Source: Candidatus Eiseniibacteriota bacterium
GTDB lineage: Bacteria > Eisenbacteria > RBG-16-71-46 > CAIMUX01 > VGJL01
DNA: 64,000 nucleotides
NCBI GenBank assembly: GCA_963792585.1
Contig: CAWBWI010000001.1
Span: 1,024,001-1,088,000 of the forward strand
Reading direction: 5' to 3'
The position numbers and the translations under genes are program-made. The stretch's first letter is position 1; each line of letters starts with the position of its first letter. Below, piece by piece: positions 49,377-64,000 of the stretch. The notes under the pieces were generated by a model that ran no database searches, was not told where the DNA came from, and saw only the letters and a program-made list of their open reading frames with translations.

Positions 49377-52372
49377 CTAGACCCCGGTCTTCAGCACGAG
49401 ACCGCGCCGGGAGCGGCCGTCGACCCGGACGTCGAGAGGACGATCGAGCCGGACGTGCCGGAGGAAGACCGTCTCCTTGAAGACCGGCTGCGCGGCGAGC
49501 CACTCGTAGTCGACGAAGCTCTCTTCCGTCACCCCGGTGGATGTTGAAGTAGCCGATCCCGAACGCGGTCAGGTTCTGAAAGAAGTGCGTCCCCTCCGAC
49601 GGCGTGACCGGACGTTTCGCCGAGGTCGGTTTCGATGATCGCGCCCGTCGCCAGCGATCTGATGCCACTCGACAGGGATTCCAAGCCACGGGTCCGAGGT
49701 GCCCCAACGGCCGGGACCGATCAGGAGATACGGCCGCCCTTCGCGGATCAAGTCGGCGTTCAGGATTCCGACCTCCTGCGCCACGGCGTGGGTGCGGCTG
49801 CGCTCGAACGCTTCCGGGCGGCACGTACAGGATGTCGACGATATCGCGGATCCGTCCCTGTCCGAGGGCATGACTGCTTGCCACCAGAACATCCTCGCGG
49901 GGAACACTCCCGGCCAGTTCATCCATGTTCGCGGCCGCGACTTCGATCGCCATCGGACGAATCTGGAGGAAGGCGAATTCCGGCAGCCCCGCCCGTGGTC
50001 CGGAGCGAGGTTCGCAGCGAACTCGATCTCGACGGGGCAACTGACCAGCTCGGCTTCCAAGCGCCAGCAGGTGCGCCAGGATCCGGGGCAACGGGAACGC
50101 TTCGGTCTTCAGGATTGGCGCGAAGCGTGACGAGGCGGATCCCCTGCCGGGAGATTCCGTCGTAGACCGCGTCGTTGTCCGCCGAGTAGGTCGAGGCCAC
50201 GGCGCCCAAGGTTCCATGCGCCTCCGCGGTTTCGAGATCGAGGTGGACGATCGCCTCGTCCGCGTCCGCGTGGATGTGCCCGATCCTCCGGCCGAGGTCG
50301 AGGGCGTAGAAGTCCCGCTGGGCGTTCTCGAGATAGTCCGCCGTGCTCGAGAACTGCGGCATCGATCGAGGGCGGCCGGGTGAGAAGCGGACAGCGCGCT
50401 CCCCATCGACGACGGTCTTCCCCAAACCGAGCGCCACGAGGGCCACTCCGTCCTCGGGGCTCGTCCCCAGCACCGGGTAGTAGTTGTAGCAGCACGCCAC
50501 GCCCGCGAGATCGGGGTAGAAGTACGACTCGTGGCGCCTCCCGACGAGCTTCTGCAGCACGACCGCCATCTTCTCCTCTTCCATCCGGTGCTGGCGTGTT
50601 CTGGAGATAGGCCTTCGCATTGCGAAAGAAGATCGAGGCGTAGACGAGGCTGATCGCGTCGCAGAGGTGCTCGAACCGCACATCTTCGTCCGGATCGTTG
50701 TTCGCGAGCATGTAGGTCCGATAGATCCCGGCGAATGGCTGGTCGTGGGAGTCCTCGAGCATGCTCGAGGAGCGCACGGCGAGCGGTTAACGCATCCGCC
50801 GGATGTAGACACGCAGGTCTTCCAGAACCGCGTTCGAGAATAGTCCCGCGGAGAAACCCAGGGCGATCTCCTCGTCGGGGGCATCGGAGAGCGCGAGCTC
50901 GGCGAGATCGTTCCGTCTCAAGAATTCATCGAAGACATCCGTCCCGATCACGACCGACGGCGGGACGTAGATTCTGAACTCCGCGCAGATCTTCCGGCAT
51001 CTCGTGCTGGGAGAGAAGCGCGTTGATGAAGCCCAGACCACGCCCCTTTCCCCCCATCGATCCGGAGCCGATCCGGCCGAAGACGGTCGTCGGGTCGAAC
51101 TCGCGCAGCGAGAACTCGGCCACCACGCCGCGCCGCGCATCCGCTACGCAACCGACTGAAGACGTCGATCAGGTATCCCCGGAGCATTTCGATGCTCTCG
51201 AACTCGGAGACGCGGACGGGCCGGATCTTCGCGGCGAGTGCGAACTCCGTCCGGGCCATGCACCAGTTCGAGAAGTGGTTGCGGGTCGCGTGGTAGCGAA
51301 GAGAGTCGTCGGGGACCGAGGCCAGCGCTGCCGGCCATCGCGGCCAGGTCGCGGACACGCGCGCACCTCCCTGCCGTCGGGCAGGACGAAGACGAAATCG
51401 CCGAAACCGAGGCTCACCTGGATGAACCGGCGCAACTCCTCCAGCAGATGGGGAGAGCGCTTGTTCAGGAAGGCGGCCCCGAGGCGCCCGCCCTTCTCCG
51501 CGATCGTCTCGTCGGAGGACTGGATCAGGGCCGGCATGTCGGGATCGATCGTCTTCATGCGACGGACGAACTCGAGACCCGCCTCCGGGTCGGCGCGTCC
51601 CTTCACGAGGGAAGCGGGCGTCGGTGATGATCCCGAGCACGTGATCCCGGTAGCGCTCGAACAGCTCCCATCCCTCTTCGAAGCTCTCCGCGAGGAGGAT
51701 CTTCGGACGGGCCCTCATCCGTCGGAGCCGCTGCTTCGCGTTGACCCCGTCGACCATGAGCGATTGGTTCTGCCGCATCAACTCCATGTAGAGCAGCGGA
51801 AGATAGGACGAGTAGAAGCGCACGGAGTTCTCGATGAGGAGGATGATCCTCACGCCCGCCAGTTCGATGTCGCGCTCCAGCGTTGCTGCGGTCCTCGACG
51901 TACTTGATGATCGCCAGAAATATCCGAACATCGCCCCGCCAGACGAAGACCTGGTCGATCGCCGCGCGCCATTCCGACTCCTTCAGGCGAGCCGCCTCGA
52001 TCGAGTTGTAGGCGAGCAGGACGATCGGGCAGATCGGGGATAGCCTTCCTTCACCACGCGTCCGAACTTGCGGACGTCCATCTCGCCGAGTCGGGTCATC
52101 GTGATCACCAGGTCGAAGTGGCGCGCCTCCAAGAGCGCGAGGGCTTCCTCCCCCGTCGCGACCCGGGTGATCCGTGGCGCGGCGCTCAGGTTCAGCTGCA
52201 GATACTCGACGTCGAGACTCTCTCCGAGGAGCCCGTCCTCTTCCAGGATGTAGGAATCATAGGCGCTCGAGACCATCAGAATGTCGCGCACCCTGAAGGC
52301 CATGAGATCGGCGAAGACATCGTCTCGGTTCTGGTAGATCTCGATCGGCGTTCCGTGATTCGCTTCGTTCAC
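49377..52372 (-). CDS. receiver-domain + PEP/pyruvate-binding-domain protein (PpsA N-terminal-like; many frameshifts)
   Basis: Fragments give DILMVSSAYDSYILEEDG, ENSVRFYSSYLP, NHFSNW, GSMGGKGRGL, VRSSSMLEDS.DQPFAGIY, EEEKMAVVLQ, VEIEFA, GPGRWG, SEGTHFFQNLT; stop TAG at 49377. Confidence 0.85.
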
Positions 52373-52653: not shown

Positions 52654-54225
52654 TTGATGAACCACTGGCCGTGGGTTCTCATCACGATCTGTATCCCCCT
52701 TTCCCTGATCCTCCCTCCTTCGACGGTCTCCGCCCCTGCGCCCGAGTTCGTCTCGGCCTCCGCGCGGGAGCTCTCGGGAGACCATCTTGGAGCTGTCCAC
52801 GATTACGAGTCGTTCATCGCGCGCGCGCCGGCCGACCGTCTTGCGCCGGTCGCCGCGCTGGCGATCGCCGCGATCCAGATCTCCGGGGCAGCCGACTCGA
52901 CGGCCGGGCTCACTTGGCTCGACCGCGTATTGGCCGACTATCGGTCGAGCCCCGAGGCGCCGCGCGCCGCGCGGCAGAAGGGCGAGATCGCTGAAGCGCG
53001 CAGGAAGTGGGCGGACGCTGCGGAGGCCTATGCCGAGGCCCTCGAGCTTGGAGGAGGCGCCGGAGGAGCCGCATGGGTCAACGAGGTGGCCGGCGCGGGC
53101 GCCCGGTGCCACGAGCGCGCGGGACAGCCAATGAAGGCGCTCGAGACCTACCGCAAGCTTCTCGACGGAGATCCGCCGCCCGAGGTTGCGGCCAATGCCC
53201 ACTATCGAATCGGCGTGGTCGAGGAAGCGGCAGGAGATTCAACGGCGGCCGCCGAGAGTTACGCAAAGGTCCTCGCGGACTTCCCCTGCACCCCCTCGGC
53301 GGATCCGGTGTTCGCCAAGCGGGCGATGATCGACCGGCACGTCTCGATCGACTGGAAACCTCTCGACACCTATGCCGCCGGGACACGGATGGTCGGACAG
53401 CGGGACTGGGACGGCGCCCTGAGATCGTGCGAGGAGATTCTCGCCGGTCCCGAGGACTCCCCTCTTCATGAATGCGCCGAGTACCGCAAGATCACGATCC
53501 AGACCCTGCTTTCCGGCGACTATACGGAAGGATCCCGGCGGATGCGGGCTTTCCTGTCCGATCACGCGGGTGGGCAACGGACGGACATGGCGGAGACGAC
53601 GATCGCGCAAAGGTGGGCTCCGGCCGTGGCGTTGGAAGCGCGCGTGCGCGAGCATCCGGACGATCCGGTGGCGTTGCGGGCGCTCGGATTCTACATGCTG
53701 CAGATTCGTTCGGGCGTCAAGGCTCTCGAGATGATGGAGAAAGCCCGCGCGATCGATCCCGACAATCCCGAAACGCAGCTCGGGCTCGGCTATGCGTACT
53801 CCATGCACGGACGCTCCGAGGAGGCGGCGCGCGCATTCGACGCCTACCTGAAGGCGAACCCGGACGACATCGATTCCCTGAACATGATCGGATACAGCTA
53901 CCTTGCGATGGGCCAGGCGGAGCGGGCGATTCCCTACTTCGAACGCTATGCCTCCGTCGCCATGGACGATGCGAACGCGCACGACAGCCTGGGCGAGGGG
54001 TATTTCCGCGTGGGACGGCTCGCGGACGCCGCGCGCGAATACGAGAGGGCGGTCGCCTTGAATCCGGCGTTCTCGAACTCATTCTTCATGCTCGGTCAGG
54101 TCTACCAGCAGCTCGGCGAGGGGGCGAAGGCCGCCGCGGCCTACCGGCGCTTCCTCGACCTGAGCCCCGACGGCCCGCAGGCGGACGAGGCGCGCGCGGC
54201 GCTTCCCGCCCTGACGGCCGAGTGA
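52654..54225 (+). CDS. secreted tetratricopeptide repeat protein
   Basis: Signal-like N-terminus, multiple TPRs (AHDSLGEGYF, SFFMLGQVY). Confidence 0.85.
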   Translation: MMNHWPWVLITICIPLSLILPPSTVSAPAPEFVSASARELSGDHLGAVHDYESFIARAPADRLAPVAALAIAAIQISGAADSTAGLTWLDRVLADYRSSPEAPRAARQKGEIAEARRKWADAAEAYAEALELGGGAGGAAWVNEVAGAGARCHERAGQPMKALETYRKLLDGDPPPEVAANAHYRIGVVEEAAGDSTAAAESYAKVLADFPCTPSADPVFAKRAMIDRHVSIDWKPLDTYAAGTRMVGQRDWDGALRSCEEILAGPEDSPLHECAEYRKITIQTLLSGDYTEGSRRMRAFLSDHAGGQRTDMAETTIAQRWAPAVALEARVREHPDDPVALRALGFYMLQIRSGVKALEMMEKARAIDPDNPETQLGLGYAYSMHGRSEEAARAFDAYLKANPDDIDSLNMIGYSYLAMGQAERAIPYFERYASVAMDDANAHDSLGEGYFRVGRLADAAREYERAVALNPAFSNSFFMLGQVYQQLGEGAKAAAAYRRFLDLSPDGPQADEARAALPALTAE

Positions 54226-54250: not shown

Positions 54251-55164
54251 ATGGAGATCGATGTCACACGACGCAGATTCTTGCGACACTCGGCCCTCTT
54301 CGGGGCGACCCTCGCGTCCGCGAGTCTGGCAGGCTCGCTCTTCCGGAGCGCCCGCGCGGACGAGGGGACGGCCGGCGTCGACTTGGCCGTGGCCAAGGGA
54401 GACTCGCCCGCGAAGAACGCGCTGGCCGCGGTTGCGGCGATCGGAGGATTCGCCAGGTTCGTCCACCCGGGTGACAAGGTCGTCATCAAGCCAAACCCGA
54501 TTGGAACCAGTCCCCCGGACCGTGCGCTGAACACGCATCCCGAGATGATCGAGGCGGTGATCCGCGAGTGCTTCCGCGCCGGGGCGCGGGAAGTCGTGGC
54601 GATCAGCCATGACGAACCCCGATCGATGGAGACCAACGGAACCAGCGGCGCCGTAGAGAGGGCGGCGGGGTGCTGCGGGCGCTGGGCACGATGGACCAAT
54701 TCCGAGAGGTCTTGGTGCCGCGCGGTCGCCTCCTCCGGCAAGTCCACATCGCCGCCGATATCATCGATGCCGACGTCTTCATCAACATGCCGATCGCCAA
54801 GCACCACGCCGGATCGCAGGTCACCGGCGCGATGAAGAATCTCATGGGGGTCAACTGGGATCGGAACTACTTCCATGCAACCGACCTCCAAAGGTGCATC
54901 GGGGAGCTCGCGACCGCGATCCCCCACTCGCTCGTCATCATGGATGCGAACCACGTGCTGCTCACGAACGGACCTTCGGGTCCGGGTGAGGTCCTGCGCG
55001 CGCGGCAGGTCATCGCCTCGGTCGATCCGGTCGCCGTCGACGCGTACGCGACGCGCTTCTTCGGCTTGGAGGCCGGGGAGGTCGGCCACATCCAGACCGC
55101 GTACGATCTCGGCGTCGGGGAGATCGACCTCGCGAAGCTGCGCGTTCAGGAAGTGGAGGTCTAG
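54251..55164 (+). CDS. Tat-exported DUF362 domain protein (frameshift at ~54668)
   Basis: TRRRFLR twin-arginine signal, VVIKPN, NTHPE, INMPIAKHH, MKNLMG, DPVAVDAY. Confidence 0.85.
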
Positions 55165-55235: not shown

Positions 55236-58014
55236 GTGGACGTCCACAAGCTCGATTCGATCTTCAAGCCGCAGCGCATCGTCCTCTTCGGGGCAAGCGA
55301 GAATCCGAAGAGCGTCGGCTGCACGGTTCTTCGCAATCTCGTGGGCGCCGGTTTCCGGGGCGTCGTCTATCCGGTCCACCCGACGATCGAGGCGGTCCTC
55401 GGGATCCAGACCTACCCCGACGTCGCCGGACTCCCCCGCCGCCCCGACCTGGCCGTGATTTGCACCGCCGCCGGGCAGGTCCCCGGCATCGTCCGCGCGT
55501 GCGGCGAGGCGGGAATCCTCGGAATCGTGATCATCTCGGCCGGCTTCCGCGAGGTGGGTGAAGGGGGTCGGGCCCTCGAGGAAGCGGTCCGGACCGAGCA
55601 GCGGCGATTCGACGGCATGCGCATCATCGGCCCCAACTGCCTCGGAATCATCGTACCAGGGCTCATGCTGAACGCGAGCTTCGCCATCGGAACTCCCAAA
55701 GCCAGGCCATGTCGCGTTCATCTCGCAGTCGGGCGCGCTGTGCACCTCGGTGCTCGACTGGGCCATCGAGGAGAACATCGGCTTCTCCTACTTCGTGTCG
55801 ATCGGCAACATGCTCGACGTGGATTTCGGGGACCTGATCGACTACTTCGGCGAGGACGAACGGACCCGGTCGATCATCCTCTACATCGAGTCGCTCAACG
55901 ACGCGCGCAACTTCATGACCGCGACCCGCGCCTTCGCCCGGCACCAAGCCGATCGTCGCCTACAAGGCGGGACGCTTCGCCGAGTCGGCCCAGGCGGCCG
56001 CCTCGCACACCGGCGCGATGGCCGGCGAGGACGCCGTCTACGAGGCGGCTTTCGAGCGCGCGGGCATCGCCCGGGTCTTCGAGATCGGCGACATCTTCGA
56101 CTGCGCCGAGCTGGTCGCCCGCCACCAGCCGCCGCGCGGGGCGCGCCTGGCCATCGTCACCAACGCCGGCGGCCCGGGCGTGATGGCGACCGACGCGCTG
56201 ATCGCCCGCAAGGGGCGACTCGCGACCCTATCGCCGGCGACGATCGAGCAACTGAACGAGGCGCTGCCGCCCTCCTGGTCGCACGGCAATCCGGTCGACG
56301 TGCTCGGCGACGCGCGACCCGAAGCGCTTCGCGAAGGCGATCGAGATCGTGCTCGCCGACCCCGGCGTCGACGCGGTGCTCGTGATCCTCACGCCGCAGG
56401 CGATGACCAATCCGACCGTCGACGGCGAAGGCCGTGGGCGAGCTCGCGGCGGGCGCGTCCAAGCCGATCCTCGCCGCCTGGCTCGGGCGGCAAGAGCATG
56501 CGCGAGGGGATCGCCCTGCTGAACCAGGCCGGCATCGCGACCTACTCGACGCCGGAGCAGGCGGTGCGCGCCTTCATGACACTGGTGGCCTACGCGCGCA
56601 ACCTCGAGATGCTCTACGAGACGCCGCGCGACATCCCGGTCGCTCTTCACCCTCGACCGGCAGGAGATCCGGCGCGTCTTCGCTCGAGTTGCTCCCCAAG
56701 GAAGGCGACATCCTTCCGCGAATCCGTCTCCAAGGCGCTGCTCGACGCCTACGGCATCCCGGTCACCACGCCCGCGGGGCGCGCGATCCGCCGACGAGGC
56801 CGTCGACGCTCGCCGCCGAGAGTCGGCTATCCGGTCGTGCTGAAGATCCTCTCGCCCGACATCACCCACAAGACCGACGTCGGCGGGCGTCGCGCTCGAA
56901 CCTCGAGCGACGAGGCGGCGGTGCGGGACGCGTTCGAGCGAATCGTCACGACAGGCGCGCCGCGCAGCGACCCGACGCGCGCATCGACGGCGTCACCGTG
57001 CAGCGGATGGTCCGACGCGCGAGACGGCTTCGAGCTGATCCTCGGCGCGAAGAAGGACCCGATCTTCGGCACGGTGATCATGGTCGGCATGGGCGGCGTC
57101 GCGGCCGAGGTGTTCGGCGACCGGGCCCTCGGCTTGCCGCCGCTCAACGAGCGGCTGGCGCGCCGCATGCTCGAGTCGCTCGCAGTCGTGGCCGCTGCTG
57201 CAGGGTTACCGCGGCCGCCCGGGGTCAACATCGACCGGCTGATCGAGATCCTGATGCGCTTCTCGCTACCTCGTGGCCGACTACCCCGAGATCCGGGAGC
57301 TCGACGTCAATCCGCTGCTCGTCACGCCGGAGGACGTGAGTCGCCCTCGACGCCCGGGTCGTCGTCGACCGCGAGATCCTCGCGCGCGGTGCGCGGCCCT
57401 ACGCGCACCTGGCGCTCCGCCCGTATCCCGAGGAATACGTGACCGAGCTCGCGTTGAAGGACGGGACGGCGGTCGGACTGCGTCCGATCAAGCCCGAGGA
57501 CGAGCCGACTGTGGACGGAGCATGCTCTCCCGCTGCTCCCCGGAGACGATCTACGCCCGCTTCCGCTCCCTCTTCCAGTGGAGCACGCACGAGATCGCCA
57601 CCCGCTACTGCTTCATCGACTACGATCGCGAGATCGCGATCGTGGCCGAGGTGGAGGAGGGCGGCGTGCGCAAGCTCGCTCGGCGTCGGGCGGCTGGTCG
57701 CCGATCCGGACCACGAGACGGTCGAGTACGCGGTGCTCGTCGCCGATGCCTGGCAGAATCGCGGGCTCGGCGGGCTCCTCACCGACTACTGCTGCGAGAT
57801 CGCGAAGCACTGGGGCCTGAAGCGGATCGTGGCCGAGACCGCGCCGGACAACGCGCGGATGCTGGCCCTCTTCCGCAATCGCGGCTTCGAGATGAAGCAT
57901 GACGCCGAGGGGGACGTCGTCGAGGTCGAGAAGGAGCTGCCCGAGGCGGAAGCCTCGTCGGGCAGCCGATCGTTGAACGTCGGCCGGGACGGTGGTATTC
58001 TTGGCCCGGGTTGA
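55236..58014 (+). CDS. bifunctional acetate--CoA ligase family / GNAT acetyltransferase (Pat/PatZ-type; many frameshifts)
   Basis: CoA-binding N-terminus (IIGPNCLG), SQSGA, ASHTGA, NAGGPG, ATP-grasp (HKTDVGG, KDPIFG, ELDVNPL), C-terminal GNAT ([15 protein letters not shown]). Confidence 0.9.
57973..58001 (+). promoter_or_regulatory. sigma70-type promoter for the downstream DUF6599-DUF362-SprA-like operon
   Basis: TTGAAC-N17-TATTCT with extended -10 TG, inside the last codons of the Pat gene. Confidence 0.55.
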
Positions 58015-58032: not shown

Positions 58033-58618
58033 TTGGGGGCAGAGGGAGGGAATGTGAGCTACGCATCGATCGGCCGCCTGCGCGGCCAGGCGGTATTCTT
58101 CTTGTTGGCCGCATGGCTCGGCGCCGGCTGTGGTGGGGACTCAGGCCCCGACAGCCCTTCCGTCGTCCGCCATCCTCAGGACTTCCTCCCCCAGCAAGTC
58201 GGAAACATGATCCCGGCGGGGACCGCGCGAACCGCGACGACCGCGACCGAGCTGCAGGAGATCATCGACGGGGGCTACTCGACCTATACGAAACACGCCT
58301 TTCGCGAATTCGTGCAGCAAACCTATCAGGGCACGGTCGGGGGCACGGAGGCGGTCGTGGTCGTGTGGATCTTCGAGGTCGCGACTTCGGACGACGCCCA
58401 CGCCCTGCATTTGGATGAGGACGTTCGAGACCGGCAATTGCCAGGACCTGACGGGAATCGGCCAGGAAGAACGCCTGTGCCTCGGGCTCGGAAACAAAAC
58501 CCTGCAGATCCGCCGGGAGCAGTACTGGACCAGGATCACGATCGATGAAAGTTCCGCGGATGCCGAGGAGCTCCTGAAGCTCTTCGCCGCCCACGTCGAC
58601 CAGAAGATCACCGAGTAG
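58033..58618 (+). CDS. DUF6599-like lipoprotein (frameshift at ~58423)
   Basis: Lipobox GAGC; ELQEIIDGGYSTYTKHAF and WIFEVATSDDA resemble DUF6599; C-terminal part continues in ORF 58415..58618. Start may be GTG 58054. Confidence 0.65.
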
Positions 58619-58626
58619 GCCGATCA

Positions 58627-59556
58627 ATGGACCGGCGCCGGTTCCTGTGGTCGAGCCTTGGCCTTGTCGGGGCGAGAATCATCTATCCACGCACCGCACG
58701 CGCCGCCGACGAGATCGGGGCCGGCTCGTCGGACGACGGTTTTCCGGACATCGTGCGGGTCAAGGGGGAGGCGCGCGCGGCCACCCGCCGGGCGATCGAT
58801 GCCATCGGGGGCATGGAGCGCTTCGTGAAGCCCGGCCAGGTCGTCCTCGTCAAGCCCAACGCGGGATTCGACAGTCCGCCCGAGTGGGGCGCCAGCACGC
58901 ATCCAGAGGTGCTCGCCGGCGTGCTCGACGCGTGCATCGCCGCGCAGGCGCGCCGGATTCTCGTGGTCGACCACACGTTGGCCCCGTCTCAACGCTGCTT
59001 CCAGCGCACGGGACTGAATCGAGCGGTCGCCGACTATCCGACGGTTAAACTGGTCGCATTGGACGATCCGAAAACGTATGTCGAAACGCCGATCCCCCTC
59101 GGTCAGGCCCTGAAGACCACACAGGTCGCCGCCGTGGTCGGCAAGGTGGACGTCTTCATCAACGTCCCGACGGCGAAGGCCCACTCCGCGACCGAGGTGA
59201 GCCTCGGGCTCAAGAACCTGATGGGCCTGGTGTGGGATCGACATGTCTTCCATCAGGGGATGGATCTTCACGTCGGGATTGCCGATCTCGCGACGGTTCT
59301 GCGCCCCCACCTCACGATCCTGGATGCGATCCACATCCTGAAGACGGGAGGCCCTACCGGCCCCGGCGAAGTGGAGGAAGCGAACGTCGTCATTGCGGGC
59401 GTCGATCCCGTGGCCGTCGATGCGGTCGGCGTCGGTCTTTCGACCTGGAATCGAGAGACGCTCACGCCCGATGCAGTTGGATACATCCGGCATGCGGCCG
59501 CCCGCGGCCTGGGATCGATGCGCTTGGATACACTGCGGATCGTGGACCTCACCTAG
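58627..59556 (+). CDS. Tat-exported DUF362 domain protein
   Basis: DRRRFL signal, VLVKPN, STHPE, INVPTAKAH, LKNLMG, DPVAVDA. Confidence 0.88.
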   Translation: MDRRRFLWSSLGLVGARIIYPRTARAADEIGAGSSDDGFPDIVRVKGEARAATRRAIDAIGGMERFVKPGQVVLVKPNAGFDSPPEWGASTHPEVLAGVLDACIAAQARRILVVDHTLAPSQRCFQRTGLNRAVADYPTVKLVALDDPKTYVETPIPLGQALKTTQVAAVVGKVDVFINVPTAKAHSATEVSLGLKNLMGLVWDRHVFHQGMDLHVGIADLATVLRPHLTILDAIHILKTGGPTGPGEVEEANVVIAGVDPVAVDAVGVGLSTWNRETLTPDAVGYIRHAAARGLGSMRLDTLRIVDLT

Positions 59557-59563
59557 GATCGCA

Positions 59564-62500
59564 ATGGGTCGCCTGATCGAGGCCGCCCTTCATCTCCTGC
59601 TCCTGACTGCGGGCGGCGTGGGTGAAGCGGCCCATGCCGCTGCGGCCCCTGAGCCCTTCGCCGCGACCCGCGCCGAGGATCTTCGTCCCCGGATCGCCCT
59701 GTCCGATGGTCGGCTTTTGTTGCTCACCCCGGAGGCCCTCTACCGATTCCAGCCGGAATCCGAGGCTTGGACGGTGACGACGTCAGCGGATCATCTGCCC
59801 GAACCTCCCCTGGTCAACCTCTCGGCAACGTCCAAGAGCATCTGGATCGCGGGGACGGGCGCCGCCTTCTCGGATCCCCGGTACGACGACTGGCAGGGGT
59901 ACTCGACTGCCGACGGCCTCCCCGGCCGGGAGGTCTTGAGCGTCGAAACCGACGATGATTACGCATACGCCGCTACGGATGCGGGCGCCGGACGATTCGA
60001 CATGTACACGCTCGAGTGGGAGGCGCTGACCACCGCCTCCGGCGAGCGCCTCGGGGCGATCTCCGACGTTGCGCTGGGTGAGGACCGCGTCTGGTTCGCG
60101 CTCGCCTTCGGGGTCGCCGAGTACCAGAAGGACACCGAGACGTGGCGGGTCGACCGCCAGCTCGGCCAGATCACGGCACCTCGCGTCCTGGCGCTTCGTC
60201 AAACCACCCGATTCCTCTGGGCCCTCACGGAGACGGGACTCGCCCGCTACGAAAAGTCGCTCCGGACTTGGACGAGCTACCCGGTCGGCACCGATCTACC
60301 GGATGCCCGCGTGCGCCAGTTCACGCTGCAGGGTGACGATGTCTGGTTGGGCACAGACGCGGGCCTCTGGCGCTACGGCACGGAGACGGGGATGTGGCGC
60401 CGCGACGAGTCGTCGACCACGATGCCCGGCTCTTCCGTCCTCGCATTCGCTCTCGAAACCGGCCGCATCTGGGTTGCGACCGAATCTGCATTTGCTCAGT
60501 ACGACCTGGAAGCCTCCCGCTGGACCGAGTTCACGGCCGGCGTGTCCGTGCCCCCCTCGGAGGCCGTCGCGATCACCCGGGCCGGCGACATCCTGATGAT
60601 CCTCGGATCGAACGGGATTGCCTACGGCCTGGCGCAGGGGCACACGAATCCGAATCTCTTCACCTGGAGGAGCCGCCCCGTGCTCCGCGCGCGGACGGCC
60701 CGAGCGGAGACGCGTGGGTGGCACACGGTCCTCGATGAGAGTGGACTGGGTCTCGCCTCCGATTCCGGAGAGGCCGTAACGGTCAAGGGTGGCGCGACCG
60801 TCTACATCGACAACGGCGCCGGACACATCGGCAGCGGAATCGGCGCGCTTCACAGCGACACCCGCTACGATCTCACGCTCAACGGTCGTCTCGACAAGGA
60901 GCGCACGTTGAGCGGGTTCTACAACTCGACGGACCCGGAAAACTCCGCCTACCAGTTGACGTTCCGCGGCGCCAGGTCGGATGCCCTGAGATCCCTCAGC
61001 CTCGGAGAGATCGAGGTCCAACCTTACAACGCCAGGCTCACACCCGGAACGGGGCTCAAGGGCGGGCAGATCCGCCTGGAGAAGGGGGAGCGCTCCGAGG
61101 AAACGCATCGGCGCCTCGTCACCGTCGATGGTTGGGTGGGGCGACGCCGCACCCTCCCGGGTCGGGACACCTTCGTCGGGGGCAGTTCCCAGGTGGAGGG
61201 CGAGGTTCGGGACGTCGACTACGTGAAGGGTCAGGTCTTCCCCATTCCGGACGGATGGTCAGCGACCGACCTCGCGAGCGCCCTCCTGTACGTCGACGAC
61301 GGAGACCCAGCCACGGACGATGCGAACACGCGCCATGGTGAGATCGCCGGTCGCCCAGGCGATTGGGATCTGCTGAAACGGAATCGAGACTACGTTCTCG
61401 GACCGAGCGGACGGTCATTGATCCTGAACGAGCCGCTTCACGCGGGACAGGCGCTTGCCGTCGCCGGCAGGGACCTACCGGAGTTGCAGGCGGACCTGAC
61501 CCATCTGCCCCTGCGAAATCACTACGCAATCGGGGGCGAGCCCGTGGCAGGTTCGATGCGCCTGGCAATCATCGACCGAGAGGGATCCGATCGGGACGAG
61601 ACCGGGGACACCTACCTGCACCGCTTCGGCCTGGATCCCGCAGGGAACGGTCAGATCGCGCCGGAGCGTATCAGCGCGATTACCGGCCTGTTGAGCTTCC
61701 CCGACACCCTCCCCTTTCCGTCCGAGGTCTATGGAACTGACCCCGTTCACCTCTACACGATCCAGTTCGCCTATCGCGCGTCGGTCCACACGTTTCGCCT
61801 GAGCCACGCGAACGTCGTCCCCGGCTCGGAGCGGATCACGGTGGACCGGGAACCGCTCCGGCCGGATATCGACTACTCGATCATTCCGTCCTCGGGGCTG
61901 TTCATCTTCTTCGAGACCGTCCTGCTCGACGAAGACAGCGCCATCGAGATCCGCTACGAGTACGAGACCGAGGGCGGGCCAGACGAGCCGATCGTCTCCG
62001 CCGGCCAGGTCGGCCTCGCGCCGACGGACCACCTCTTCGTCGGGGCCAACGTCATACGATCCGGAAGCGGGAGCGAAGGGACGACGACCGCCGACGTGAG
62101 CAGCCGTCTGGAGTGGAAGAACGAGAGTCACTTCCTCCGGCTCGTGCCGGAACTCGCCTGGAGCCGTGAGGATCGCGAGTCCGTGTCGGGGTCGGCGAGC
62201 GGGATCGCGATGCAGGGGCGCTTCCGCAAGCTCGAAGTCGCCGCCTCCCAGCGATCTCTCGGAAAGACGTTTACCTCGTTCGAGGACCGAAGCACGATTG
62301 CCGGCCGTTTGCGCGAGGAGGCGAACGGATGGGGTCGTGTCGACCTCGGACATGATCTTCAGGCGGAGGTGGATTGGCGGCGGGCGCTCTCCGATTCCCC
62401 TGGAGGAGCGGGGGTTCGAGCCCTGGGAGAGGAGTCCTCCCTCTCCGGAAAGGTCCGGCTCCTCCGGGGAGGATTGCCGAATCTGGAAGTCCGTCGTGGG

Positions 62501-63742
62501 CGCGTCCTCCTGGACGCGGAGGATGCGCGAAGCGAGAAGTGGATCACACGCGCCGACCTCGAGATCAGCCCCGATCAGGCCGGGTTTGCGCCCCTGGGCA
62601 TCCGGCGGCTCTGGCTGAGAACCTTCTTTCAGCGCAGCGATCGTCGCTACGACGCCACAGGCGGCGTCCCGACCGACTCCACCCGGGACAGGGTCACGGA
62701 TCATGCATTCGCGCGGCTCAACGGATCGGTGGGCTCTCCCCTGTCCTGGAACATCGCCTTCGAGGATCGATCGACGAAGCAGTCCAGAGACCAGGGGAAC
62801 GCCCGGCTCCGGCGATTCCAGAAGCTGGACGCCAGCCTTCAGTCGCAACCACATCCAAGTGTGGACACGTTCCTGCGATGGGAGGCGGATCGAGATCTCG
62901 CTTGGATCCCCTCCGGGGGAAACGGAGGCTTCCGCACGCGGCGCCTCTTCCAGTCGACCTCCTACCTCTACCCGGGTCGGATCACCACGCGTCTCGCCCC
63001 TCTCTCCTTTCGGCTCGATCTGAGCCGGGATGGTTCGGCGGACGGCGAGCCGGGAATCCGAATGCCGGGAGCGAGCAGCCTCTGGAGCGAACCCGCGCGG
63101 AACTCGCGCCGGCAGAATCTCCACAATCGGATCGTCGAAGGTCGGCTCCAGATCACGCCGGCCCTGCGCATCGTCGAGAGGTGGGAAGACGAGGCATCGC
63201 GATTCGACCGCGAGGGGCTTGCCAACGACTCCGACGGCCGTCGGCTGGAGCACCGCTTCGAGCTTCGCATTTCCGGCGGCTGGATCAACCTGAGGGCGAT
63301 CACGGGTCGATCCAGCGGAGATGATCTGCCCACCACGAGGCAGGAGCGGCTCTTCGGCGAGTGGGAGCAGACGTGGCGCGGCGGATGGCTCACCTATCTC
63401 GCTCTCGACGGCGAACGATCTTGGGATCGCGATCGGGCGGTGGAGGCGCGCAGCCAGGCTTTCGGCCCGCAGGCCCGCCTGACCTGGCGCCAAGCGCGGT
63501 GGCAAACGGATGCGGGCTTGGGCGCCTCGCTCGACTGGACCCGCACGTGGGATGCGTCCGTCGGCGCCACCAGTCCGTGGTCGGAAAGCCGAAGACAAAC
63601 GTTGACCACAACGCTTAGCCTGCAACCCTTCAAGCTCTTCTCGATCAAGGCCCTCTACGAACTGAACCGCTCCCGGAGCCCCTCCGGGGCGAACTGGCGC
63701 GCGGGACAGAACCTGCGCATCCGGCTCCTCGTCCGGACGTGA
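59564..63742 (+). CDS. large outer-membrane protein: N-terminal beta-propeller, SprA/Sov-like region, beta-barrel
   Basis: Signal peptide from ATG 59564; propeller repeats (GLP...V......VWLGTDAGL); ordered SprA-like motifs; amphipathic strands to the C-terminus. Confidence 0.7.
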   Translation: MGRLIEAALHLLLLTAGGVGEAAHAAAAPEPFAATRAEDLRPRIALSDGRLLLLTPEALYRFQPESEAWTVTTSADHLPEPPLVNLSATSKSIWIAGTGAAFSDPRYDDWQGYSTADGLPGREVLSVETDDDYAYAATDAGAGRFDMYTLEWEALTTASGERLGAISDVALGEDRVWFALAFGVAEYQKDTETWRVDRQLGQITAPRVLALRQTTRFLWALTETGLARYEKSLRTWTSYPVGTDLPDARVRQFTLQGDDVWLGTDAGLWRYGTETGMWRRDESSTTMPGSSVLAFALETGRIWVATESAFAQYDLEASRWTEFTAGVSVPPSEAVAITRAGDILMILGSNGIAYGLAQGHTNPNLFTWRSRPVLRARTARAETRGWHTVLDESGLGLASDSGEAVTVKGGATVYIDNGAGHIGSGIGALHSDTRYDLTLNGRLDKERTLSGFYNSTDPENSAYQLTFRGARSDALRSLSLGEIEVQPYNARLTPGTGLKGGQIRLEKGERSEETHRRLVTVDGWVGRRRTLPGRDTFVGGSSQVEGEVRDVDYVKGQVFPIPDGWSATDLASALLYVDDGDPATDDANTRHGEIAGRPGDWDLLKRNRDYVLGPSGRSLILNEPLHAGQALAVAGRDLPELQADLTHLPLRNHYAIGGEPVAGSMRLAIIDREGSDRDETGDTYLHRFGLDPAGNGQIAPERISAITGLLSFPDTLPFPSEVYGTDPVHLYTIQFAYRASVHTFRLSHANVVPGSERITVDREPLRPDIDYSIIPSSGLFIFFETVLLDEDSAIEIRYEYETEGGPDEPIVSAGQVGLAPTDHLFVGANVIRSGSGSEGTTTADVSSRLEWKNESHFLRLVPELAWSREDRESVSGSASGIAMQGRFRKLEVAASQRSLGKTFTSFEDRSTIAGRLREEANGWGRVDLGHDLQAEVDWRRALSDSPGGAGVRALGEESSLSGKVRLLRGGLPNLEVRRGRVLLDAEDARSEKWITRADLEISPDQAGFAPLGIRRLWLRTFFQRSDRRYDATGGVPTDSTRDRVTDHAFARLNGSVGSPLSWNIAFEDRSTKQSRDQGNARLRRFQKLDASLQSQPHPSVDTFLRWEADRDLAWIPSGGNGGFRTRRLFQSTSYLYPGRITTRLAPLSFRLDLSRDGSADGEPGIRMPGASSLWSEPARNSRRQNLHNRIVEGRLQITPALRIVERWEDEASRFDREGLANDSDGRRLEHRFELRISGGWINLRAITGRSSGDDLPTTRQERLFGEWEQTWRGGWLTYLALDGERSWDRDRAVEARSQAFGPQARLTWRQARWQTDAGLGASLDWTRTWDASVGATSPWSESRRQTLTTTLSLQPFKLFSIKALYELNRSRSPSGANWRAGQNLRIRLLVRT

Positions 63743-63840: not shown

Positions 63841-64000
63841 ATGAGCCGCACCGCCGGACGTTGGGCCGTTCCGGCACTGTTCGCTTTCGCGCTTCTCACG
63901 TTGATCATCGCCACTCCTGCGGCGGCAACCTGTGAGACCGTCGATCCCCTCTTCATGCTCCCCTCAGACGCCGACTGCGCAGGCTGGGCGCGCGACGGCG
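63841..64000 (+). CDS. secreted protein (partial; possibly a second DUF6599-like protein)
   Basis: GGAGG then MSRTAGRWAVPALFAFALLTLIIATPAAA signal, followed by LPSDADCAGWARDG; truncated by window end. Confidence 0.55.
   Translation, partial: MSRTAGRWAVPALFAFALLTLIIATPAAATCETVDPLFMLPSDADCAGWARDG

What the first reader, a model, noticed from the sequence alone, without database searches (positions are those of the whole stretch)
59564..63742. Compact SprA/Sov-like translocon homolog fused to a beta-propeller
Seen: a ~1390-aa secreted protein with three parts. First, about 7-8 propeller blades (~59700-60620). Second, at ~60850-61970, an ordered run of motifs: YQLTFRG..SDALRSLSLGEI; GLKGGQIRLEKG; VRDVDYVKGQVF; LLKRNRDYVL...SLILNEPL..GQALAVA; LRNHYAIG; YLHRFGLD..GNG.....GLLSFPDTLPF; NVVPGSERITVD...L..DIDYSI....G.....AIEIRYE. 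Third, ~590 aa of amphipathic beta-strands. Knowledge (recalled, not searched): Bacteroidota SprA, the ~2400-aa, 36-stranded T9SS translocon, has similar motifs in this order (KLEY..EDDII.KIEVGNV, EY......GYISL..RL...EVLAVA, MKNIYSLG, LD......GRIIFP..EPF, NVP.GSV.VTAGG..L.EG.DY.V.Y..G). Inference: a reduced SprA-family barrel with a fused sensing or binding propeller (Reg_prop/PorZ-like), outside any gld/por gene context. It could be a divergent secretion channel or a SprA scaffold repurposed as a receptor or importer.
Basis: partly seen in the sequence, partly recalled or inferred. Interest (0 to 1): 0.85.

Follow-up and report, generated by a model that had tools for sequence, protein, structure and literature searches.

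The report
Second SprA pore tied to DUF362
Several uncultured bacterial lineages carry a second, trimmed copy of the giant type IX secretion pore, with a built-in propeller domain; among the genomes compared it occurs only together with one family of exported enzyme-like proteins, which suggests it either exports them privately or links them to the cell interior.

Summary
Observation confirmed. The intact 1392-aa gene encodes a signal peptide, an 8-repeat Reg_prop-type propeller and a true SprA homologue (profile-profile probability 100%). It is collinear with SprA from first to last strand. It lacks SprA's N-terminus and one ~600-aa internal segment. A manual strand count gives 36, so the barrel is probably full-size; no structural model was obtained. 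It is accessory: this genome also has full-length SprA, PorV and PorU. Full SprA is in 192 of 201 phylum genomes, the compact form in 14. Its gene sits in an operon conserved across phyla with a DUF6599 lipoprotein, a periplasmic Tat-DUF362, often a NapH/NapG-like protein, and Tat-DUF362 proteins bearing a T9SS sorting domain. That last subfamily occurs in exactly the same 14 genomes, often on other contigs. A control Tat+CTD family does not track the barrel, so it is not a general Tat exporter. Best reading: a private export/maturation pore for these proteins (0.45); rival: a surface dock or conduit (0.35). The scan noted this family and operon earlier on other DNA. I found no description in print.

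The parts
59564..63742 (+). Compact SprA paralogue, 1392 aa (P0001), intact
   Evidence: 22 close relatives, 208 proteins at E<=0.001
59564..59641 (+). Predicted Sec signal peptide (aa 1 to about 26)
   Evidence: read from the sequence; no predictor run
59666..60685 (+). 8-repeat Reg_prop-type beta-propeller (aa 35-374); periplasmic by inference, as it precedes strand 1 where SprA has its periplasmic SkpA-binding N-terminus
   Evidence: SprA N-terminus from PMC10994853 passages
60761..61171 (+). Predicted barrel strands 1-7 (aa 400-536), homologous to F. johnsoniae SprA about 145-265
61172..61969 (+). Retained insert (aa 537-802), homologous to SprA about 270-745; with strands 1-7 the most conserved part; aa ~545-740 are missing in a short subfamily
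61970..62167 (+). Predicted strands 8-11 (aa 803-868)
62165..62188 (+). Short loop where full SprA carries about 600 further residues (L083 about 764-1366, the PF14349 region); extracellular by strand parity (inferred)
62186..63739 (+). Predicted strands 12-36 (aa 875-1392), aligning end to end with the C-terminal barrel of SprA
   Evidence: prob 75%, E 2.5e-5 vs full SprA; prob 97.6%, E 4.8e-12 vs the 1700-aa group
58627..59556 (+). Tat-signal DUF362 protein without sorting domain (periplasmic by inference)
   Evidence: PF04015 E 3.9e-46; directly upstream in 13 of 14 genome loci with upstream DNA
58033..58627 (+). DUF6599-like lipoprotein; frame break near 58425, probably an assembly error
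63844..64000 (+). Start of a secreted DUF6599-like protein ending in a short TWG tail (continues to G000:C1:1088458). Directly after it, beyond the window end, lie two Tat-DUF362 genes with a T9SS type A-like sorting domain ('DUFc'; G000:C1:1088455-1089879 and 1089919-1091295)
   Evidence: DUFc: (TIGR04183 22.1 and 27.1 bits, cut-off 23)

Best explanation
A second, dedicated SprA-type outer-membrane translocon for one cargo family. SHOWN: the protein descends from SprA, keeps a collinear barrel and the first insert, has lost the N-terminus and a ~600-aa segment, and has gained an N-terminal propeller; it coexists with a normal SprA; it shares an operon and a genome-level distribution with Tat-DUF362-CTD proteins (DUFc). 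INFERRED: DUFc is folded and loaded with a metal cofactor in the cytoplasm and crosses the inner membrane by Tat. In the periplasm it is matured or escorted by the DUF6599 lipoprotein and the periplasmic DUF362, with reducing power from the NapH/NapG-like protein. It then passes through the compact barrel to the cell surface. The fused propeller would take over the jobs of Plug and the SkpA/SprE dish, sealing the periplasmic mouth and selecting cargo.
For: Homology and collinearity. DUFc at E<=2.1e-87 in 14 of 14 barrel carriers and in 0 of 187 others, whose best hit is 1.9e-60; 1-4 such copies per genome, many on other contigs, so not linkage alone. Patchy inside genera (g14 1 of 4, g20 1 of 2). 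Operon shared by clades about 27% identical: 23 of 52 metagenome loci show DUFc > lipoprotein > DUF362 > NapGH-like > barrel. Tat motif in 37 of 37 DUFc and 44 of 45 periplasmic DUF362, background 0.7% per 80 aa. DUFc ends in a sorting-type tail where complete: 36 CTD-length, 2 TWG, 2 cut, of 40. The retained insert and first strands are the best-conserved part (0.46-0.54 against 0.34-0.38). SprA passes folded proteins through a ~7-nm pore (PMC7463736 passages).
Against: DUFc carries an ordinary type A CTD (PF18962 34.2 bits, cut-off 27, in L050), which the main SprA/PorV should also accept. A control Tat+CTD family (DUF1501) is in 18 of 201 genomes and only 4 of them carry the compact barrel, so Tat cargo as such does not need it. 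No PorV-like gene was recognised among the recurring neighbours (part of the output cut). The SkpA-binding N-terminus, whose removal impairs export in F. johnsoniae, is absent. A short subfamily lacks a further ~195 aa of the insert (16 of 16 rows with the same bounds) yet its genomes keep DUFc. GldL/M/N were not found in G000, but the controls were silent too. No structural model exists.
Confidence: 0.45

Rival explanations
1. Surface dock and conduit. DUFc leaves by the housekeeping SprA and then sits on the uncapped compact barrel like a lid. The barrel and its propeller gate link an outer module (DUFc plus TWG-tailed DUF6599) to a homologous inner module (DUF362 plus DUF6599 lipoprotein, fed by NapH/NapG), passing a small molecule, a cofactor or, less likely, electrons across the outer membrane.
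For: Paired paralogues on both sides of the membrane: the lipoprotein/DUF362 pair at the barrel and a second DUF6599 beside a DUFc gene in most carriers. A NapH+NapG-like protein lies directly before the barrel in 38 of 52 metagenome loci. The ordinary CTD suits the main pathway. The deleted ~600 aa would leave the barrel more open to the outside (inferred). The propeller's closest solved relatives are sensor domains. The 14/14 versus 0/187 co-occurrence fits this equally.
Against: No precedent seen for an importing SprA. The barrel shows no heme or Fe-S motif. DUF362 with a NapGH-like protein also occurs without a barrel (G000:C3:862-864 kb), and the NapGH-like gene is absent from all 16 Eisenbacteria-type loci. 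DUFc has few conserved Cys (C72 in 27 of 37), too few centres to carry electrons over a membrane.
Confidence: 0.35
2. General back-up translocon for a broader set of CTD proteins under some condition (for example anoxia); DUF362 genes travel with it because they share regulation or a mobile block.
For: Other CTD proteins often flank the gene, for example an Omp28-like CTD protein directly downstream in 6 of 16 genome loci. One carrier (G130, 92% complete) had no full SprA match.
Against: 13 of 14 carriers have full SprA. DUFc copies on unlinked contigs still track the barrel. Non-carrier genomes have CTD proteins and manage without the barrel.
Confidence: 0.12
3. A much smaller barrel or another fold that only borrowed SprA's insert domain.
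For: Direct profile hits cover only about 70 aa; the C-terminal match to full SprA is modest (prob 75%) and amphipathic strands can align by composition; automated strand picking found only 24; no model was made.
Against: Collinear alignment of strands 1-11 plus insert at prob 100% and of the C-terminal half at 97.6% to the 1700-aa SprA group, resuming at the matching motif.
Confidence: 0.08

Closest known systems
SprA/Sov, T9SS outer-membrane translocon (F. johnsoniae, PDB 6H3I/6H3J/8GL6/8GL8; TIGR04189; PF14349)
   Same: Homologous, collinear strands 1-11, first insert and C-terminal barrel; probably 36 strands; neighbours carry type A CTDs.
   Different: 1392 against about 2000-2400 aa; ~600-aa PF14349 segment and SkpA-binding N-terminus absent; fused propeller; far below the TIGR04189 cut-off; own branch (support 100, quick tree); accessory and patchy; operon with Tat-DUF362 proteins, whereas T9SS cargo is described as Sec-dependent (PMC12618676 passages).
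Reg_prop propellers of Bacteroides hybrid two-component sensors (4A2L, 3OTT) and PorZ
   Same: Same repeat type (profile E 7.5e-41; weak PorZ hits in relatives).
   Different: One 8-repeat propeller fused to an outer-membrane barrel; no kinase, no CTD.
Plug and SkpA/SprE periplasmic parts of the SprA translocon
   Same: Possible functional analogue: a periplasmic domain at the barrel mouth (PMC10994853, PMC7463736 passages).
   Different: No sequence relation tested; analogy only.
Porin-cytochrome conduits (MtrAB/MtrC) and SusCD pore-plus-lid pairs (recalled, not searched)
   Same: Large barrel with a surface partner and a periplasmic partner linked to a quinol dehydrogenase-like protein, if the rival reading holds.
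   Different: No hemes, no TonB plug; SprA ancestry.

Membership tests
SprA/Sov superfamily (homology) | Collinear sequence homology to SprA across barrel and insert | tested here: met
SprA/Sov equivalog TIGR04189 | Score above 200 bits | tested here: not met
   17.8 bits; best compact relative 40.4
SprA/Sov | PF14349 SprA_N region (large insert) | tested here: not met
   no hit; segment deleted; present in the genome's own SprA
SprA/Sov | 36-stranded barrel | tested here: inconclusive
   manual count 36, automated lower bound 24; no model available
SprA/Sov | Extended N-terminus binding SkpA/SprE | tested here: not met
   replaced by a propeller; alignment to SprA begins at strand 1
SprA/Sov | Lateral opening bound by PorV; capped extracellular end | not testable with these tools
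   needs a structure; PorV exists elsewhere in G000 (PF19572 E 1.4e-19)
T9SS | GldKLMN motor and hub in the genome | tested here: inconclusive
   GldM, GldL, GldN not found, controls silent, genome 84% complete; GldK not searched; PorU above cut-off
T9SS | Cargo with type A CTD | tested here: met
   DUFc: TIGR04183 27.1 and 32 bits, cut-off 23; second G000 copy 22.1
TonB-dependent receptor | Plug domain and 22-strand barrel profile | tested here: not met
   no Pfam, NCBIfam or PDB hit

The most novel reading that the evidence does not exclude
A type IX secretion pore has been rebuilt into an uncapped, propeller-gated trans-envelope conduit that couples a surface DUF362 metalloenzyme to a periplasmic DUF362 and a NapH/NapG-like quinol dehydrogenase: a heme-free way of running redox chemistry or cofactor uptake at the cell surface.
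Probability: 0.25. Interest if true: 0.92.

Novelty: new variant of a known kind. Interest (0 to 1): 0.7.

Why it matters
SprA is described as the single translocon of the T9SS, working with PorV, Plug, SkpA and SprE on Sec-exported cargo. A second paralogue that lacks a large part of the protein, has a fused gate and is tied to one Tat-exported family would show which SprA parts are dispensable and whether the scaffold can be made cargo-specific or turned into a conduit. It also gives a concrete handle on DUF362 and DUF6599, two families without a known function, and a smaller natural SprA for structural work.

Tried and rejected
A binding prediction for propeller with DUFc was not run; binding is untested. 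Direct PDB sequence searches with the protein or its family profile did not find SprA; the link is transitive. Family profile against the single C-terminal fragment of the genome's own SprA: probability 1%, too weak alone. 'General Tat exporter' rejected by the DUF1501-CTD control. 'Replaces SprA in streamlined genomes' rejected. RNA runs X1 and X2: contigs of a mostly 90-95% alike relative cover the region flatly at low depth, which shows neither transcription nor co-transcription. Promoter/terminator scan: chance level. ESM Atlas: nearest clusters unnamed; SprA at 0.88, a lead only; DUFc returns DUF362 only. DUF362 and DUFc have no credible solved relative by sequence. All 16 short-form rows fell out of the tree (55 of 71 rows kept), so the number of short-form origins is untested. 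Fisher tests overstate because kin are not independent. Literature search was swamped by unrelated words and shows nothing.
Full report
Observation. The ORF at 59564-63742 (+) is intact and gives 1392 aa. The genome G000 has 5.4 Mb in 7 contigs, is 84% complete and shows many frame breaks elsewhere. Named close relatives are Candidatus Eisenbacteria and Krumholzibacteriota. Residues 35-374 hold eight Trp-marked repeats, and the family profile matches Reg_prop sensor propellers at E 7.5e-41.

Relation to SprA. TIGR04189 hits only aa 731-801 (E 3.5e-4). It hits 18 of 23 compact relatives in the same model region, all far below the cut-off. The search of 1.84 billion representatives returned 208 proteins (150 listed), including propeller-less relatives of 1500-2080 aa; 4 of 10 of those scanned pass the SprA cut-off. 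Their profile matches PDB SprA at E 6e-69 and matches the compact family at probability 100%, E 9.5e-49 over 467 columns. Against 12 full-length SprAs from the same phylum, aa 392-836 align with L083 151-708 (probability 100%) and aa 874-1392 align end to end with 1367-2030 (probability 75%, E 2.5e-5; 97.6% against the 1700-aa group). A global alignment ends the first half at L083 763. So about 600 residues are cut out at one point, in the region that Pfam calls SprA_N, and the N-terminus is replaced by the propeller. Reading the hydrophobic alternation of 74 aligned rows by eye gives 7 strands before the insert, 4 after it and 25 more, 36 in all; an automatic threshold found 24 outside the insert. 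SprA has 36 (PMC10994853 and PMC7463736, passages). The barrel is therefore probably full-size with short loops; this rests on sequence alone. That the deleted segment is extracellular cap and the propeller periplasmic is inferred from strand parity and from the position of SprA's N-terminus.

Variants. 29 long forms make one branch apart from SprA (support 100, quick tree, 55 of 71 rows). A short form lacks aa ~545-740 with the same bounds in 16 of 16 rows examined. Named distant members come from WOR-3, Latescibacter, Coatesbacteria, Bacteroidota and Fibrobacterota.

Accessory, not a replacement. G000 also holds a full-length, frame-broken SprA on C4, PorV, PorU above cut-off and about 259 CTD-ending ORFs by my own profile. 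GldL, GldM and GldN were not found, but no control genome rang. In 201 genomes of the phylum, full SprA matched in 192 (180 above cut-off) and the compact form in 14; 13 of the 14 also have full SprA.

Operon. In 16 genome loci, a DUF6599-like lipoprotein and a Tat-DUF362 precede the barrel in 13 of the 14 with upstream DNA, and a Tat-DUF362 of a second subfamily (DUFc) lies within 8 kb in 7 of 16. In the window's genome two DUFc genes follow just beyond the window end. In 53 unnamed metagenome loci found with an alignment that includes a WOR-3 protein (about 27% identity; barrel detected in 52), a ~500-aa NapH+NapG-like 4Fe-4S membrane protein directly precedes the barrel in 38, and 23 show DUFc > lipoprotein > DUF362 > NapGH-like > barrel; five have under 300 bases upstream; three short-form loci have DUFc directly downstream instead. 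These loci are not independent and some are near-copies. Tat motifs: 37 of 37 DUFc, 44 of 45 periplasmic DUF362. Of 40 DUFc, 36 end in a CTD-length tail, 2 in a short TWG tail, 2 are cut. DUF362 shares Pfam clan CL0471 with lactate racemase (PMC11770544, passages); its chemistry is unknown, and a metal cofactor is inferred from the Tat signal and invariant K, N, H residues.

Co-occurrence. DUFc scores E<=2.1e-87 in exactly the 14 barrel carriers; the best of the other 187 genomes is 1.9e-60. The threshold between the two groups was read off the gap in the scores. Many copies lie on other contigs than the barrel. Carriers are spread over five families and are patchy within genera, though kin are not independent. 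The lipoprotein is in the 14 carriers and weakly in one more genome. As a control, a Tat+CTD DUF1501 family is in 18 of 201 genomes, only 4 of them carriers. The tie is to DUFc, not to Tat cargo in general.

Mechanism. Two readings fit. In the first (0.45) the barrel is a private translocon that exports matured DUFc, with the propeller as built-in plug and selector. Against it stand the ordinary CTD, the control family, the missing SkpA-binding N-terminus and the short forms. In F. johnsoniae the CTD buries about 1000 square angstroms on SprA (PMC10994853, section 7 read whole), aided by the cap (passage); which residues do this I could not see, so whether they survive here is open. In the second (0.35) DUFc leaves by the main SprA and docks on the opened barrel, linking an outer DUFc/DUF6599 pair to an inner DUF362/DUF6599 pair fed by NapGH. 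Against it, the NapGH-like gene is absent from all 16 Eisenbacteria-type loci and DUF362-NapGH pairs exist without a barrel.

What is known. Ten searches gave no paper on a second SprA, on T9SS in Eisenbacteria (0 papers) or on DUF6599; I saw listings and abstract starts for these, and one search was uninformative. Passages were read of PMC10994853, PMC12398890, PMC9251779, PMC12618676, PMC7463736 and PMC11770544; no supplements were read. The 2018 SprA structure paper was not held under the id I tried, and its topology figures or supplements could settle the strand mapping. MtrAB and SusCD comparisons are recalled. The scan's own notes had this family (e1-902519) and the operon (e1-5103870) on other DNA. 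I had found the operon before seeing the second note. Beyond what those short notes show, this report adds the collinear, single-deletion anatomy, the accessory status, the 14/14 versus 0/187 co-occurrence and the control against a general Tat role.

Verdict. Real; a new variant of the SprA family, not a member of the SprA equivalog; interest 0.7.

Noticed in passing
G000 genome-wide; window 63844 onward; L061:9247-10302; L067:9482-10549: A short C-terminal tail, roughly T-W-G-x-I/V-K-x-x-Y/F-R, ends about 110 ORFs (121 regex hits of 21661, some spurious). It stands in place of the CTD on two DUFc orthologues, and one DUF6599 protein (L072) carries a CTD instead, so the two tails look interchangeable. 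The scan has noted this tail several times.
   Followed up: partly
G000:C1:about 608000-611900 (L011:9375-13922): A third large barrel-like gene with faint SprA motifs (TIGR04189 E 0.05) lies between a PorV gene, a CTD-bearing protease-like gene and a BamA-like gene; the neighbour names other than PorV are read from the sequence.
   Followed up: no
G000:C4:15480-21646 (L012): The full-length SprA gene is broken by several frame shifts, probably long-read assembly errors.
   Followed up: partly
window 54251-55164: A second Tat-DUF362 gene, split by a frame break, 4.4 kb upstream, next to a TPR protein (52654-54225).
   Followed up: no
window 49919-52372 and 55236-58014: Long genes broken by multiple frame shifts (a response-regulator/PEP-utilising-like gene read from sequence, and a CoA-binding acyl-CoA ligase/acetyltransferase-like gene); a relative's contigs differ by single-base indels in the latter.
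   Followed up: partly
L017, L019, L020, L024, L025, L028, directly downstream of the barrel: An Omp28-like protein with a CxxC motif and a CTD replaces DUFc as the next gene in 6 of 16 genome loci.
   Followed up: partly
G000:C3:976436, C3:1301872, C3:530124: Other proteins combining a Tat motif with a T9SS-type CTD: an aminotransferase, an intradiol dioxygenase and DUF1501. T9SS cargo is usually described as Sec-dependent.
   Followed up: partly
P0093, P0104, P0108, P0114, P0117 and others: A separate group of propeller-less SprA homologues of 1550-2080 aa, mostly unannotated by Pfam, forming its own branch.
   Followed up: partly
P0110: A 385-aa record joining a DUF362 C-terminal half to pieces of the barrel; probably an assembly artefact.
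   Followed up: no
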